Shown: positions 1 to 6,000 of the stretch, piece after piece
Position numbering within the stretch: position 1 is the first letter of the stretch
Layout of the letters: each line of letters opens with the position of its first letter
NCBI GenBank assembly: GCA_040752415.1
Contig: JBFMGU010000244.1
Span: 1 to 16,152, forward strand
Length of the DNA stretch: 16,152 bases
Source: Myxococcota bacterium
Lineage (GTDB): Bacteria; Myxococcota; JACRCW01
Reading direction: 5' to 3'
Program-made: the position numbers

Positions 1-3000
1 CCAGGAGCGGGAACTTCCCGGAGCCGGAACACGCGACCGGTCCCCGGGTCGGTCACGTGGATGGAGGCGTCCTCTTTGATGTCGCAGAGGATGTTGGCAA
101 TGGTGTTGGGGCCCTCCCCGATGTTGGCGAGACCCAGGCGCAACGCGCCGAGCCAGTTGTTGGCCTGGACGGTCAGTTGGACGTTGAAGCTGTCAGCATC
201 CTTGGCCGGGATGAAGACCTCAAAGTGAGGCATCGGGTGGGACTCCTATGGGGATTTGTCGACGGTCACAGGCACGGGAGGGGCAAGACGCCCGCAGGAA
301 TGGGCGGCCATGCTAACGACCCGCATTTTCCAGGGTCAAGGTGGCCTCCCCACAAAAGAAAAACGGCGCCAGGTTGCCCCGGCGCCGCTGCGGAAACAGG
401 AGGATGGGAGGCGCTCAGACCTGGGTCTGCATGGTCTGCTTGACGCCGCTGGTGGCCTTCTCCACCACCTTGCTGGTCAGCTCCAGCTCCTGGCTGAACT
501 TGTAGACGCCCGCCTGCATGGCCAGCAGCTCCTGGTTGGAGAACTGCTTGCCACTGGAGGCCTTGGCAATGATCTTGTCCAGCGCGTTCTGGCCGTCCAT
601 GACGCCGGACATCAGGCGACGGACACCGTCAGCCTTCTTGGGGTCCTTGACGGCTTCCACCGCCTTCACGCCGGTGGAGGGGTCCACGCCTCCGGTCTTG
701 GCGGCGTGCAGCACGTCCACGGCCTTGGTGGCCTCCTGCGTCTTCTGGACGTCCTGGACCTGCTGGGCCTGGTTGACCTGCTGGGAGAGCATCTTGTCGA
801 ACTTGTTCTCCATGCCGCCCTGCTGACCGCCCACCTTCTGGGCTTGCTGGGCCTGCTGCTGGACCTGCTGCATCATCTGCTGCGCGGCCTTGCCAAGTCC
901 GCCACCAATGGGGTCTGCCACGGCTACCTCCTCAAGGAGAACCAACCCGCCGGGGGGCGGGCTTGCGGAGAGTGTATCGCATCCGGGGGACGGCAGTTGT
1001 GTGGGATACCGGGATCCCTCAGTTGCGCGCCCGGCCCGGTGTCGCGGTGGCCGCTTCCCGCGTGATTTCCTGCAGGATGCGACTGAGCTTCTCAATGGCC
1101 TTGGCGTGCAGGCGGCTGGTCCAGCTCTTGGACAGGCCCAGCTGGTCGCCCACCTCCTGCAGGCTCAGCTCCTTGAAGTAGTACAGCGTGAGCAGCTTCT
1201 GTTCCTGCTCCGGCATGCGCGAGAGCGCCTCACGCACGTGCTTCTTCATCTCCACGTCGGCGAGGCGGGTGTCGATGGGGACGGCTTCCTTGTCCTCCAC
1301 CTGCAGGCCTTCCATGCCCTCCAGCGAGGTCACATAGATGGTGACGAGGTTGCTGACCTGCTCCGCCAGCTCGTTGATCTCGTCCTCGGTGGGCTTGTTC
1401 TCGGCGGTGGAGCCGGCCTGGCGGTCCGCCATGTTCTGCAGGAAGGCGTTGGCGCGTTCCTCAAAGCGGAGCTTGGCGTACTCGTTGCGGTTGACCCAGC
1501 CCATCTGGCGCAGGCCGTCATAGATGGCGCCGCGCACGCGGTAGTAGCTGAAGGTCATGAAGTTGGCGCCGAACTTGGGGTCGTAGCGGTCGGCTGCCTC
1601 CAGCAGGCCGATCATGCCGAACTCCATGAGGTCGTCGAACTCGATCTCCTTGGCCAGCGTCTTCTTGATCTTGCCGGCAATGGAGCGGACGAAGGGCTTG
1701 TACTGGTCAATCAGCGCGGCCTTGTCGACCTTGCCGTCCGGGGTGAGCGCGGGGCCACCCTTGTTGTTGCCCTTGGGCGGAGGGATGGCCCCCAGCGACT
1801 CTCCCAGGTTCTGCACCGCGACCTGCTTGGCGGCCGGGTTGGGCGGCGGTCTGGGGCTGGGCCCCGGGGTCCGCGGCACGGGTCGCGGCGTGGAACCGGG
1901 GATGGTGGGAAGCTTGTCTCGCATGCGCCGCCAGTGCCGTGTTTCAGGAGCGGGCCAGCTTGGCCAGCTCGGTTTGGAGCCTGCTCACGAAGGACGGGTC
2001 CGCCTCACACATCTCCGAGATGGACTCCTCCATGGCCTTGATGCCCACGCCCTTGGCGCCCTTCATCTTGTCCTTGACGACGAGGGACACGAACTTCCGC
2101 GTGGCCTCCTCCTTGGACGCCTTGCCGTCCTTGAGGTCTTTGGCCAGGCCCGTGAGCTCATCCAGCAGCCAGCTGCGGACCTGGCGGGCCTTCTCGGTGG
2201 AGTCCTCGGCGGCGCCGGTGGCGGTGACCATGCCCTTGAAGCTGGCCTTCTCCGCCTTGCCGGTCTTTCCGGTTTCCTTGGCACCGCCGGTGCCGGTGGT
2301 ACCCCGCGGCCCACCTCCCCTACCCACACGCATGGTTCACTCCTGGTAGGCCACGGGCTCGTTTCCGCAGCAGGTCAGACGCGATCAAAACAACCGGCCT
2401 CATGGGCATCAAGCAGCGCCCGCGCAAAGTCCGCGGCCATGCCCTTGGGGTCCTGGCTGATGGCGCGCTCCAGCTCGGCCTTCCCCTCGTCGAACTTCTT
2501 GAGGAACAAGAGGCTCTCCCCCACGTGGGCACGGGCCAGCGCGCTCTCCGGCGCCACCGACAACGCTTCCCGGTGACACTTCAGCGCCTGCTGGAACTTG
2601 CCCTGGGCGAAGAAGAGGTTGCCGAGGGCCATGTGGGGCACGTCGGAGTGCGGGACCAGGGCGGAGACGCCGGCAAAGACCTCCTGGGCCTCCTTCCACT
2701 TGCCCAGCTCCATCATGAGGTAGCCCGCCTCCAAGAGGAGAGCGACCTCCTTCTGGGGCACGGGGACAATGCCTTGGACCATTTCCTGGTTCATTGGGAT
2801 CTCCGCCTGGGTTTTCGCAGGCTAGAGGTGTTGGGCCCCACAAAGCAACAGGGCGGCCCGACGCAACGCCGGACCGCCCTGGTGTCAGATGCCCCGTCCT
2901 ATCAGCGGACGTTGTTGATGCTGTTCTTGACGGTGTCGTGCTTGGTCTTCAGCACGTTGGAGATGGTGGTGTACTGGCGGTTCTCGTTCTGCATCTTCTC

Positions 3001-6000
3001 CTGCAGCGTCAGGTACTGCATGGAGAAGGACATCTGCATCTCCTGCATCTTCTTGGTCTGGTTCAGCATGTCCTGCTGCGGGTTGCCCGTGGAGGCCACG
3101 TCCGTGCCCGCGCTGCCAAGACCGGTGCCGTTCCCGGGGATCTGCTGGGTGCCACCCGCGTAGCCCGTCCCGCCGGCGCCCATGGCCTGGGCACCACCGT
3201 TGACGGCGGCGGTGATGACGGTCCCACCCGGCACGAATGGCGCTGCCACCGAAGCCGCTCCGGCCGCGGCTCCGGCTCCGGTCGCAACGCCCGTACGCAC
3301 CATGGTCCCGAAAGAGCTGTTGGGAGTCTGCCGGGTGGAGCTCGTCTGGGTGGACATCTCCGTGGAGCCGCCCCGGGTGGTGTTGTTGGTGCTGACGATA
3401 GCCATGTTGTTCTCCTGTGTTGGGTGCCGTGGGGGAGTGCCCTCAAGGCAGCGAAGTTATCGCACCGGGCCCGTGGCAGTTGCTTCTCCCTGGGGGATCC
3501 AGGGCGGGCCCACCATCAAGGGAATCAGCGAGCCGCGCCTCCGCGCGCGCCTTTCTTCTTGGCGTCCGCGGGGTTGGCGGCCGGGGGACTGGCCAGCTTC
3601 TGCTTGGTGTTCCAGAGGTACTCCAGCAGCTCCTGGGCGTGCTGGTAGGCCTGCAGCGCCTTCTTGGCCCCGGCCTTCTCCTTGTTGTTGCCGGTCTTGG
3701 CCAGCTCCTCCAGCGCCGCCACGCGGGCTTCCAGGCCGGAGCGGTCCAGTGAGTCGGACTCAATCAGCTTCTCGATGGTGGGGAAACCCACGCCGGGGGG
3801 CGGCTCCTCCTTGCCCTTCTTCTTGCTGAGGGCGGCGGGCGCCGAGGGCGCCACGGGGCGCTTCACCGCGTCGCTGATCTTGAACGTGCCCATGCCGGGC
3901 GCGGTCTTGTCCTTGGACATGTGCTGGACCTCAGGGCGCCAGAGCCGACGCCAGACAGGGCTCGCATGGTCCGCGCCGCGGCCCCGCGCTGTCAAGGTAG
4001 GCCGCACGCGCGGTGGCTGCGTGGCCCGGCCGTGTGGGCCCTGGTAGGGTCCGCGACCCCGCTTGTTGGAGCACGCATGCCCCGCCTCACCCGCCTGTCC
4101 AGCCTGGCCTTCCTGCTTGCCCTGTCCGCCTGCCCCACCTGCGTGCAACCCGAGCCCGGTCCCGGACTGGAAGGCGACGAGTGCGGCGCGGAGCGGGAGT
4201 GCGACACGGGCCTGCGCTGCGTGGAGGCGCACTGCGTGGCGGCGGACCTGGATGGGGGCAACGGGCAGTCGTCGTCCGGCGGTGCTTCCTCCAGCAGCAG
4301 CGGCGCGCCCGACGCGTGGACGCCGGAGTGCAACATCAAGCTGGACTGCGCGGTGAACGGCAGCGTGGACGGACGGGATTGCGTGGACGGTCGTTGCGTC
4401 TGGCTCTCATGCGAGTCCGACCTGGAGTGCGGCGCACGCTTCTGCGTGGAAGGCAGGTGTGAGGACCGCACCCGCTGCGAGTCCGACGAGGAATGCGCGG
4501 GGGAAGGCGGCGTGTGCGAGGCGGGCGTGTGCGTGGCGGCCTGCGCCGACGACGCCCAGTGCAACGAGGGCGCGCCGCTGCCGGTGTACACGTGCTCGGA
4601 GGGTCGGTGCCGGCAGCGCTGCCTGGGCGACTTCACGTGCCTGCTGGAAGGCGGCATCTGCGAGGGCGGCGTGTGCATTCCGCCGCTGTGCGAGGTGGAC
4701 GAGGATTGCGCCGAGCAGGGTCAGTACCTGGAATGCGCCTCCGGCCGCTGCACCCCCTACGAGCCCTGCACCGACGACGCCGCGTGCGGCAGCGCGACCT
4801 TGTATTGCGCGGAGGACGGGAAGTGTCGCGACCGGCCGGCGTGCGCGCGGGATGCGGATTGCGCGGGCGGGTTGTGCGTCTCCGGCGTGTGCCAGCCGGC
4901 CGCGGAGTGCGGGCCCAACGTGCCGGCCTGCGGCCTCTCCGAGGAGTGCGTGGGCGGGGTGTGCGTGCCGGCGCTGGAGTGTCGCGGCACCGGGGATTGC
5001 GCGGCGCCCCAGATCTGTCGCGCGGGCGTGTGCGCGGACCCGCCCACCTCGCAGGTGGCCAAGATCGTCATCTCCACGCCGTACGGCCTGTGCGACCCGC
5101 TGCTGGACGCGCGCGCGGCCTGCACGCTGACCATGCGCCCCGGCGAGAGCGCGCCGCTGGGGGCGTTGGCGCTGGATGCGGCGGGCCGGATCCTGGTGGG
5201 TGTGGCGCTGACCTGGGCCACCGACCAGCCCAGCATGGCCGACGTGCTGGCCGGTCCCTCGACGGAGACGCTGCTGACCGCGGGCCTGGACAGTGGCACC
5301 GCGCGCATCACCGCCAGCGCGCAGAACGTGACCAGCCCGGCGGTGAGCGTGGTCAACCTGGGCGCTCCGCCCGCCGGCGTGCGCGTGGCCGTCACCGACG
5401 CACGCAGCGGCAGCCCGGTCTCCGGCGCGATTGTGCGCGTGAACGACCAGGAGGAGACCACGGGTCCCGCGGGTCTCGTCGAGCTGGAGCCGGAGGCCAC
5501 GAGCGCGCCCTACACCGTCAGCGTGTTCCACCAGGCCTTTGACTACGTGACCTTCTTCTCCCTGCCGGCCGAGCAAGGCGGTGGGCTGGACGTGGTCATT
5601 CCGCTGGCCTCGTTGCAGCCGCCGCAGCAGTCCGCGGGGCTGCGCGGCACGGTGAACCTGGAGTCCGCGACGAGCCAGGGTCCGGTGGAGATGGCGCTGG
5701 CCGGCGTGAGCGCGCCCAACGTGGCGGACCTCTCGTTCTCGCGCCTGCTCGGGGACACCATCTTCGTCGACATCGAGCTGCCCATCATCGGCAGTCAGCA
5801 GATTCCGCTGCCGGGTGGCATCACGCTCTCGGCGGAAATCCCGCTGGTGGGCGCGCAGACGTTCAAGGACTCGTTCTACGCGCTGGGCAGCGGTGGGCGG
5901 CGCATTGCGTGGGCGTTCGGCGGTCGCCTGCCGTTTGCGGCGGTGCAGGGCCTGTTGGGACTGGGTGACCCCGTCACCGCGATCCTGGCGCTCATCCCGT

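What a model noticed while it worked through the whole genome (the two positions that open the first line are those of the whole stretch)
415..3920. Needle-subunit cassette (SctE-SctF-SctG order, plus SctI) of the supposedly needleless myxobacterial type III secretion [...]
g03782 (167 aa, unannotated) is the type III needle/filament subunit (SctF-like) of the Myxococcota T3SS. It lies between a YscE/CdsE-like gene (g03783) and a CdsG-like TPR chaperone gene (g03781), the yscEFG/cdsEFG order, followed by a FliA-type sigma and an inner-rod SctI gene (g03778). The family occurs across the phylum and inside both kinds of myxobacterial T3SS cluster, which the literature calls needleless.
Evidence so far: ESM Atlas features of residues 105-167: 10 of the 10 best family-bearing hits share PF09392 T3SS_needle_F; rank 2 scores 0.88 with 177 shared features, 19% of that cluster carry the family. 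g03781 hits chlamydial CdsG, E 1.6e-8. Predicted E+G+F(105-167) complex 0.82 vs best control 0.44; residues 143-167 sit on the TPR protein; runs agree in >=88% of contacts, partner pLDDT >=58; mark reached by 116 of 157 solved and 2 of 215 mismatched pairs. 9 of 14 g03778 homologues hit PF17001 SctI. Homologues in 247 of 301 Myxococcota genomes; sctI and sctJ within about 3 kb in 9 of 14 20-kb loci, directly before sctI in 7. 12 of 20 genomes without it have no SctV/FlhA hit, 31 of 32 with it do.
(Added by a program. Inside this text positions count along the whole contig: contig position 1 is position 1 of the stretch shown here. "Call 12" and the like, gene names such as g00115 and contig names such as C1 are that model's own, and its searches are not shown. 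The text may have been shortened before it was handed on; [...] marks where a part breaks off. The agent that wrote the report below was given it as the finding of a first reader that could run no searches.)

Follow-up and report, generated by a model that had tools for sequence, protein, structure and literature searches.

The report
Needle genes in "needleless" myxobacterial injectisome
The type III secretion machine of predatory myxobacteria is described as lacking a needle, yet it carries a conserved needle-family gene (this one) and a second, variable needle-family gene, so it may build a filament after all, which gene knockouts in Myxococcus xanthus can test.

Summary
The genes are real and form a cassette conserved across Myxococcota: E-F-G-X-fliA-sctI, followed in many relatives by J-K-L-N-O-P-Q. 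This mirrors yscEFGHIJKL.

g03782 (F1) has no needle hit itself. Orthologues tied to it by the N-terminal domain reach 28-29 bits on PF09392 (cut-off 29.4). A tail profile retrieves only needle proteins from the PDB (EsaG, MxiH), and full-length F1 docks its C-terminal helix on the TPR neighbour (0.69 vs 0.00). F1 is the only needle-like gene in the short T3SS locus. By gene order it is MXAN_2434 (long locus) and MXAN_5654 (short locus).

New here: the same system has a second needle-tail family (F2). It is 71-76-aa, canonical-looking and often tandem in Myxococcaceae, and 230-650 aa elsewhere, with eight long paralogues in this genome. The F1 tail also recurs, up to 100% identical, in signal-peptide proteins of genomes mostly lacking type III export.

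Needle-family homology is about 0.9 likely; F1 as the core needle subunit about 0.6. No secretin is linked and nothing is shown experimentally.

The parts
3525..3920 (-). g03783 ('E'), 131 aa; conserved partner gene upstream of F1, candidate co-chaperone by position and model contact only
   Evidence: Family present in 36 of 80 fetched loci. Residues 43-54 and 101-110 touch F1 in the model. No YscE similarity; 1 of 27 orthologues hits chlamydial CT668 at E 0.006.
2902..3405 (-). g03782 (F1), 167 aa needle-family protein: S/T-rich N-terminus, conserved small-residue segment (about 25-76, with PFVPGG), G/S/T linker, C-terminal needle-like helix (about 108-167)
   Evidence: Alignment A2; orthologue PF09392 hits; PDB profile hits; complex.
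2902..3084 (-). C-terminal needle-like tail of F1, shared with F2 paralogues and with signal-peptide proteins of other phyla
2375..2794 (-). g03781 ('G'), 139-aa TPR protein, predicted chaperone of F1
   Evidence: TPR, CdsG and LcrH models; aligns over 108 columns with YscG/AscG, E 2e-4, probability 45%; binds the F1 tail in the model.
1944..2333 (-). g03780 ('X'), 129-aa conserved helical protein in the yscH position; function unknown
   Evidence: Conserved between G and fliA; no YopR similarity by profile or fold.
1019..1924 (-). FliA/WhiG-type sigma factor
   Evidence: TIGR02479 E 5e-47, below cut-off.
415..921 (-). g03778, SctI-like inner rod/needle adaptor
   Evidence: NF038054 E 0.029; SctI models hit 5 of 7 orthologues scanned; PF17001 E 0.006 and 0.056 in 2 of 2 Myxococcaceae-type orthologues; directly before sctJ in relatives.

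Best explanation
g03782 (F1) is the SctF-equivalent core needle subunit of the Myxococcota type III system. Shown by computation: its tail is homologous to needle C-terminal helices; it sits in the sctF slot of an E-F-G-X-(fliA)-I-J-K-L cassette; it is the only needle-like gene in the minimal short locus; its tail is predicted to dock on the TPR protein G. Inferred: G, helped by E, keeps F1 unpolymerised in the cytosol. F1 is exported through SctRSTUV after SctI and polymerises on the SctI adaptor, with the conserved tail lining the channel and the 105-residue N-terminal part replacing the usual outer helix. The variable F2 paralogues, flanked by LcrH-type chaperones, form the distal part (extension, tip or translocon). 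How the filament crosses the outer membrane is unknown: it may stay periplasmic or borrow an unlinked secretin such as that of the Kil system.
For: (1) PF09392 matches 20 of 301 Myxococcota genomes at E<=0.001, 4 over cut-off, against 1 of 250 scored genomes of a Gammaproteobacteria-labelled class sample, that one an ordinary needle cassette. (2) Orthologues L088 and L089 score 28.8 and 27.8 bits with PF09392 as top Pfam family; their N-termini match a profile built without them at E 1e-9. (3) The 36-row tail profile gives 4 PDB hits at E<=10, all needles, aligned to the C-terminal end: 7Y6C chain F (E 0.004; the EscE-EsaG33-73-EsaH complex per PMC9426511) and three MxiH chains (E 0.6-0.85). 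It scores YscF, AscF and L137F above 463 of 463, 498 of 498 and 499 of 500 shuffles, but not YscI or AscI. (4) Gene order E-F-G-X-fliA-I-J-K-L-N-O-P-Q against yscEFGHIJKL; short locus F1-I-J-Q-R-S-T-U-V in 3 of 3 Myxococcaceae-type genomes read. (5) Complex E(36-112)+G+full F1: 0.69, best of 3 controls 0.00; mark reached by 116 of 157 solved and 2 of 215 mismatched pairs (approximate here); runs agree in >=70% of contacts; partner pLDDT >=51; F1 134-167 and 57-68 at the interface. (6) FliK-type ruler (SctP) and SctI are retained. (7) The gene in this position is transcribed: bin depth 544 sense vs 28 antisense; MXAN_2434 6,050-7,132 counts.
Against: g03782 itself hits no needle model. Full-length profiles A1 and A2 find no needle in the PDB, and PF09392 is not among the 25 families listed for the 78 A1 members. 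11 of the 36 rows of the tail profile came from genomes located by the PF09392 search, so lean towards needles; only 4 of the other 25 rows hit PF09392, and an unrelated helical family hits as many rows overall (13 of 36). hhalign to YscF/AscF gives only 34.5% probability. A proline at the needle-turn position occurs in 1 of 36 F1 tails against 17 of 19 short F2. The complex pass may reflect likeness to solved EFG complexes. No secretin lies within the clusters examined. In published counts MXAN_2434 is no higher than sctI and lower than the sigma gene. G048 (93% complete) has F1-I-J but no export-gate hit. The tail occurs in 31 of 39 genomes without FlhA/SctV.
Confidence: 0.6

Rival explanations
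1. The short F2 paralogue (71-76 aa; MXAN_2457 by gene order) is the main needle or pilus subunit, and F1 is a minor needle-family part such as a base adaptor, nucleator or cap.
For: Short F2 has canonical size and matches PF09392 over positions 4-71 of 71 (E 6.8e-5 and 5e-6). Its profile hits 7Y6C chain F at E 2.4e-5. It folds as a helix-turn-helix (H3-26, H30-70, pLDDT 77) with PrgI as top Foldseek row (E 1.2, weak). It occurs in tandem copies, six in L129, and varies quickly like an exposed major subunit.
Against: It is absent from the short locus. The same slot holds 233-423-aa proteins in other lineages, this genome included. It lies between LcrH-type TPR genes, far from sctI-J. Its transcript is low: MXAN_2457 770-982 counts (identical copies may lose reads) and near background. 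The L131 copy hits no Pfam family.
Confidence: 0.2
2. F1 is a secreted tip, filament-sheath or translocator-type protein (SctA/SctB-like) that carries a needle-like docking helix, with G acting as an LcrH-type chaperone.
For: A conserved Gly/Ala-rich, mildly hydrophobic segment (19-residue hydropathy 1.51; >=1.6 in 10 of 30 orthologues). G orthologues prefer LcrH/SycD to CdsG (4 of 4). A long tail paralogue next to a TPR gene hits NolX above cut-off and the HrpK1 translocator model; another hits EspA at E 0.043.
Against: No EspA, IpaC/SipC, YopD or LcrV family among the 25 shown (of 27) for the 36 F1 tails. In the model G grips the C-terminal helix, as EsaH does with EsaG. F1 is kept in the short locus without any chaperone or translocon gene.
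Confidence: 0.13
3. The resemblance is convergent: the tail is a generic amphipathic helix with a non-T3SS role, and the system really has no needle.
For: No direct hit for the window protein; short helices match many families; the same tail is fixed in signal-peptide proteins of T3SS-less genomes.
Against: Near-cut-off Pfam scores of true orthologues, needle-only PDB hits, shuffle controls, the sctF gene slot in both loci and the chaperone model.
Confidence: 0.07

Closest known systems
Ysc needle cassette yscE-F-G-H-I-J-K-L (Yersinia enterocolitica, Aeromonas asc)
   Same: Gene order small gene - needle gene - TPR gene - unknown - sctI - sctJ - K - L; tail similarity to YscF/AscF; G aligns full length with YscG/AscG.
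   Different: F1 is twice as long and lacks the proline turn; E and X show no similarity to YscE and YopR; a FliA sigma gene is inserted; no sctC secretin in the cluster.
EscE-EsaG-EsaH of Edwardsiella (PDB 7Y6C; PMC9426511, passages read)
   Same: Best PDB sequence hit of both F1 and F2 tail profiles; the TPR chaperone grips the needle's C-terminal helix, as in the model of G with F1.
   Different: EsaG is a 73-residue needle; the F1 model has an extra contact through residues 57-68.
Myxococcus xanthus T3SS* (MXAN_2434-2464) and T3SS(2) (MXAN_5643-5654)
   Same: Same clusters by gene order and product names: F1 is the first gene of one and the last gene of the other.
   Different: Described as lacking SctF, needle and translocon (PMC3459982, PMC10433427, PMC10849154, PMC12075869, PMC12428579; passages read). 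Here each has a needle-family gene and the long one has two kinds.
Needle-extension and translocon proteins (EspA/SseB, Bordetella Bsp22, NolX/HrpK)
   Same: F2 paralogues sit between LcrH-type chaperones, vary in length, and some hit NolX/HrpK1 or weakly EspA.
   Different: Their tail scores best on the needle family. The Bsp22 resemblance is recalled and was not tested.

Membership tests
SctF needle subunit (PF09392) | Score above the Pfam cut-off (29.4 bits) | tested here: not met
   No hit for g03782. Orthologues reach 30.2 and 29.2 bits in the genome scan and 28.8 and 27.8 as whole proteins.
SctF needle subunit (PF09392) | Homologous C-terminal helix ending at the protein's end | tested here: met
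   through orthologues; the profile is partly enriched in PF09392-selected rows.
SctF needle subunit (PF09392) | 70-90-aa helix-turn-helix with a proline turn | tested here: not met
   F1 is 167 aa, proline at the turn position in 1 of 36. Met by short F2: 17 of 19, hairpin model.
SctF needle subunit (PF09392) | Encoded with sctI and sctJ in a T3SS cluster | tested here: met
   In this genome only sctI is adjacent.
SctF needle subunit (PF09392) | C-terminal helix held by a TPR chaperone | tested here: inconclusive
   Model passes at 0.69 vs 0.00 but may reflect likeness to solved complexes.
SctF needle subunit (PF09392) | T3SS-dependent export and polymerisation into a hollow filament | not testable with these tools
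   Needs experiment.
SctG/CdsG needle chaperone (g03781) | Family score above cut-off, best among TPR chaperones | tested here: not met
   34.8 vs 170 bits; LcrH/SycD ranks higher in 4 of 4 orthologues. Full-length alignment to YscG/AscG is weak but present.
SctE co-chaperone (g03783) | Similarity to YscE/AscE/CdsE | tested here: inconclusive
   hhalign probability 0.6%; no SctE model among 27 orthologues; no Atlas feature hit; YscE is top of 9 references at only 4.4 bits. CdsE was not available.
YopR/SctH (g03780) | Sequence or fold similarity to YopR | tested here: inconclusive
   Probability 0.2%; no YopR among 50 fold rows, model pLDDT 62.
SctI inner rod (g03778) | SctI profile match and position before sctJ | tested here: inconclusive
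   Only sub-cut-off hits; position met in relatives; listed as SctI for these loci in PMC3459982 and PMC10433427.
Complete injectisome | Dedicated secretin (SctC) in the cluster | tested here: not met
   5 of 5 genomes have secretins, none inside the clusters read; the nearest in G166 is about 55 kb away.

The most novel reading that the evidence does not exclude
The Myxococcota T3SS is a working, bacteria-targeting injectisome. An F1 needle carries a polymorphic family of needle-tail proteins (short extenders, long NolX/HrpK-like or glycine-zipper translocators; eight in this genome) that lyse prey. Unrelated bacteria (Bacteroidota, Acidobacteriota, Chlorobi, Proteobacteria) export a near-identical copy of the F1 tail through Sec, kept by purifying selection, as a decoy subunit that caps or poisons the predator's needle: an anti-predation defence by needle mimicry.
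Probability: 0.15. Interest if true: 0.95.

Novelty: new variant of a known kind. Interest (0 to 1): 0.8.

Why it matters
Reviews and primary papers up to 2025 explain myxobacterial prey lysis by a 'needleless' T3SS and propose that Tad pilus tips stand in for the missing needle (PMC12075869). The standard account of T3SS evolution has SctF lost in this earliest-branching lineage (PMC3459982). Needle-family genes in both loci undercut both ideas and name the genes to delete. The published deletion (mxan_2438-2451) leaves MXAN_2434 and MXAN_2457 untouched, so their role was not tested there. The system could show what an early, secretin-less needle looks like. The Sec-exported tail homologues are a separate, apparently undescribed family.

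Tried and rejected
Direct Pfam, NCBIfam and PDB searches with g03782 or full-length profiles found no needle. tblastn of the tail against plasmids found one Spirosoma hypothetical protein and no annotated needle.

E, G and X profiles against the PDB gave nothing specific; G gives generic TPRs. The fold search of X found no YopR. The VIA search of short F2 ranks a Shigella 6RWY chain tied first (Z 9.0, rmsd 2.9, 69 aligned), but among many unrelated hairpins, so it is uninformative. hhalign of short F2 to YscF/AscF gave only 5.7%.

A search for chlamydial CdsG loci in the phylum of G321 found none over cut-off (0 of 121), so CdsE/CdsF/CT668 could not be compared. The 211-of-301 tally for the short-F2 profile includes cross-hits to F1 and long F2 and is not a count of short genes. 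The first shuffle control returned no scores and was rerun.

No related earlier finding of this scan. Thiery 2022 and Konovalova 2010 are not held. No MXAN_243x-246x or 564x-565x rows in the supplement of PMC10196010. No tree was built: 40-50-residue helices would not resolve it.
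Full report
OBSERVATION. The window is G000:C162. Six minus-strand genes lie between 415 and 3920, here called E (g03783), F1 (g03782), G (g03781), X (g03780), fliA and I (g03778). G is a TPR protein. Its CdsG hit (E 1.6e-8) is real but scores 34.8 bits against a cut-off of 170, with a generic TPR model above it and LcrH/SycD just below. F1 has no Pfam, NCBIfam or PDB needle hit. 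The Atlas lead was reproduced (0.88, 177 features, PF09392 in 19%; the tool calls scores under 0.9 leads only). In this genome the rest of the T3SS is scattered: sctJ-K and sctO on C157, sctL on C493, sctN on C491, sctQ-fliO-R-S-T on C143, export-gate genes on C138 and C24, the latter with flagellar-type genes.

CONSERVED CASSETTE. A scan of species genomes found 500 confirmed relatives and returned the best 80 loci. The E family occurs in 36 of the 80, G in 35, fliA in 23, I in 21 and J in 11. All 29 loci with E, F and G on one strand have them in that order. Where contigs are long the order continues I-J-K-L-N-O-P-Q, then fliO-R-S-T-U. This parallels yscEFGHIJKL in an annotated Yersinia plasmid. 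A 30-row F1 profile matches 258 of 301 Myxococcota genomes at E<=1e-6 (the tally includes unpublished G180, on which no other claim rests). A second F1 sits directly before sctI in the short locus, F1-I-J-Q-R-S-T-U-V, in 3 of 3 Myxococcaceae-type genomes read; no chaperone or other needle-like gene was called there. In a fourth genome (G056) the match lies at the same place but my gene caller missed it.

IS F1 A NEEDLE HOMOLOGUE? PF09392 matches 87 of 301 Myxococcota genomes at E<=0.05, 20 at E<=0.001 and 4 over the cut-off. The control was 1 of 250 scored genomes at E<=0.001 in a Gammaproteobacteria-labelled class sample, and that hit is an ordinary needle cassette. Two of the four over-cut-off hits are F1 orthologues directly before X-fliA. 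As whole proteins they score 28.8 and 27.8 bits with PF09392 on top. Their N-termini match a profile built without them at E 1e-9, while 5 F2 and 3 Sec-type proteins do not. A 36-row tail profile returns four PDB chains at E<=10, all needles: 7Y6C chain F (E 0.004) and three MxiH chains. 7Y6C is the EscE-EsaG33-73-EsaH complex (PMC9426511, passages); I take the 43-residue chain to be EsaG although the PDB label names the co-chaperone. The profile scores YscF, AscF and a third needle above all but one of 1,461 scored shuffles, and does not favour two inner rods.

Against this: 11 of the 36 rows came from genomes found by the PF09392 search. Only 4 of the other 25 rows hit PF09392, and an unrelated helical family hits as many rows overall (13 of 36). 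Full-length profiles find no needle, and hhalign to YscF/AscF gives 34.5%. I put homology at about 0.9.

CHAPERONE. With full-length F1, G and E(36-112), the complex scores 0.69 against a best control of 0.00. The mark is reached by 116 of 157 solved and 2 of 215 mismatched pairs (approximate here); runs agree in at least 70% of contacts; partner pLDDT is at least 51. The best-resolved contacts join F1 143-157 to G 122-135; F1 57-68 and E 43-54 and 101-110 also touch. The pass may come from likeness to solved complexes. G aligns with YscG/AscG over 108 columns (E 2e-4), but LcrH/SycD outranks CdsG in 4 of 4 orthologues. E shows no YscE similarity and X none to YopR.

A SECOND NEEDLE-TAIL FAMILY (F2). 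Downstream of sctU, between LcrH-type TPR genes, the long cluster has another needle-tail gene. In Myxococcaceae-type genomes it is 71-76 aa (22 distinct ORFs) and often tandem (six in L129). It matches PF09392 over nearly the whole model in 3 of 4 copies scanned, folds as a hairpin and has a proline at the needle turn in 17 of 19 rows, against 1 of 36 for F1. F1 and F2 tails are homologous (97%, E 1e-10). In other lineages the slot holds 233-251-aa proteins (two over the Pfam cut-off). In this genome it holds a 423-aa protein on C401, one of eight long paralogues. One long paralogue elsewhere hits NolX above cut-off and the HrpK1 translocator model. I favour F1 as the core needle because it keeps the sctF slot in both loci, is conserved, and is the only one in the minimal locus. 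F2 behaves like distal, variable parts.

MAPPING AND EXPRESSION. Product names in the supplement of PMC11804543 (rows and one part read) follow the same order: 2435 TPR, 2437 sigma, 2444 FliK, 2445 SctQ, 2453 LcrH, 2458 DUF1521, 2463 SctV, 5655 PilZ. F1 is therefore MXAN_2434 and MXAN_5654, and short F2 is MXAN_2457; this is inference from order, not a sequence match. The table's UniProt names are 'Type III secretion protein' for 2434 and 'EscI/YscI/HrpB family inner rod protein' for 2457, so automatic annotation already hints at a T3SS role. Counts without prey: 2434 6,050-7,132; sctI 5,929-6,929; sctV 3,920-5,183; 2457 770-982; 5654 31-42. MXAN_2434 rises with B. subtilis (log2 0.82, padj 0.002) and C. 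crescentus (0.52, padj 0.018). One raw-read run laid across species on L196 gives depth 544 over the F1 bin, 2-144 over sctJ to sctU, and 1,306 over an unknown gene beside the LcrH gene. Expression fits a working gene but does not decide between F1 and F2.

THE TAIL OUTSIDE T3SS. 39 of the 80 loci are from other phyla by their record titles and have no conserved neighbours from the cassette. By a crude rule of my own, 30 of 39 start with a signal-peptide-like sequence, against 0 of 41 myxobacterial-type proteins. 8 of the 39 genomes have FlhA/SctV (completeness not given). Their last 50 residues are 70-100% identical to the nearest myxobacterial F1 tail, while 29-74% of codons differ at identical residues and third-position GC follows the host, which points to long purifying selection rather than contamination. 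These loci were picked for likeness to F1, which inflates the identities. A profile finds 2,765 clusters at E<=0.001. A decoy role is speculation; a self-assembling secreted fibre is as plausible.

LITERATURE. Passages read: PMC3459982 (SctF absent, lost in Myxo systems), PMC10433427, PMC10849154, PMC12075869, PMC12428579, PMC11509652 (needle-less), PMC10196010, PMC11804543, PMC12248157. Searches for myxococcus + type III secretion + needle, needleless + T3SS, MXAN_2433-2438, myxococcus + T3SS + sctF, myxococcus + T3SS + predation + filament (2024 on), myxobacteria + yscF, and myxococcota + injectisome + needle showed no paper naming a myxobacterial needle gene in the listings and passages I saw. 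Thiery 2022 and Konovalova 2010, which define the clusters, are not held, and the main supplementary PDF of PMC12075869 could not be read; they could mention these genes. Pfam labels are already precomputed for two short F2 proteins.

VERDICT. A new variant of the T3SS needle module in a system described as needleless. Homology about 0.9; F1 as core needle 0.6; short F2 as main needle 0.2; tip or translocator role 0.13; convergence 0.07. No secretin is linked, one genome has F1-I-J without an export-gate hit, and no step of the mechanism has been shown by experiment. Interest 0.8.

Noticed in passing
L034-L084 (39 non-myxobacterial loci), e.g. L064:6494-6955, L078:9569-10153: Stand-alone 150-200-aa proteins, mostly with a signal-peptide-like start, ending in a tail up to 100% identical to a myxobacterial F1 tail, in genomes mostly without type III export.
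   Followed up: partly
G000: C82, C417, C32, C401, C499, C41, C72, C454 (L085, L116-L122): Eight long (about 330-630 aa) paralogues with a needle-like tail, several with glycine zippers; only the C401 copy lies in a TPR-flanked T3SS cassette.
   Followed up: partly
L129:13316-19168; L105; L170: Tandem arrays of three to six near-identical 71-76-aa needle-like genes in Myxococcaceae-type clusters; in L131 and L198 the two copies are inverted relative to the operon.
   Followed up: partly
L187:67-1629: 521-aa needle-tail protein with NolX and HrpK1 translocator matches beside a TPR chaperone, outside the main cluster: a translocon candidate.
   Followed up: no
L127:9978-11090; L129:15615-16721; L131:13704-14864: DUF1521 protein inside the cluster next to a TPR gene; the gene in this position (MXAN_2458) is up about 1.4 log2 with all three prey species in PMC11804543, so it is an effector candidate.
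   Followed up: no
L127:6506-8186; L133:4976-6653; L194:530-2402: A conserved outer-membrane beta-barrel gene and a TPR protein gene flank the FHA (SctD-like) gene at the cluster end; candidates for outer-membrane contact in a secretin-less system.
   Followed up: no
L196:17385-18437: Two unknown genes next to the LcrH-type gene carry the highest RNA depth of the stretch (1,306 and 422).
   Followed up: no
L134:10766-13005; L135:12299-14378; L111; L113: Reduced cassettes: F1-X-fliA without E and G in small-genome lineages, and F1-I-J alone in another family, one of whose genomes has no export-gate hit.
   Followed up: partly
L052:9395-10761; L115:989-2034: Two F1 copies in tandem between E and G.
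   Followed up: no
window 1-400: A GC-rich hairpin with a T run follows sctI, and an unrelated open frame starting near 233 runs off the contig end, so sctJ is not next to sctI here (read from the sequence, not scanned).
   Followed up: no
window 3921-16152: Unrelated genes: a Cys-rich 980-aa protein, SelB, a zinc-ribbon/TPR protein, an Smr-domain protein, DUF4412, DUF308 and a response regulator.
   Followed up: no
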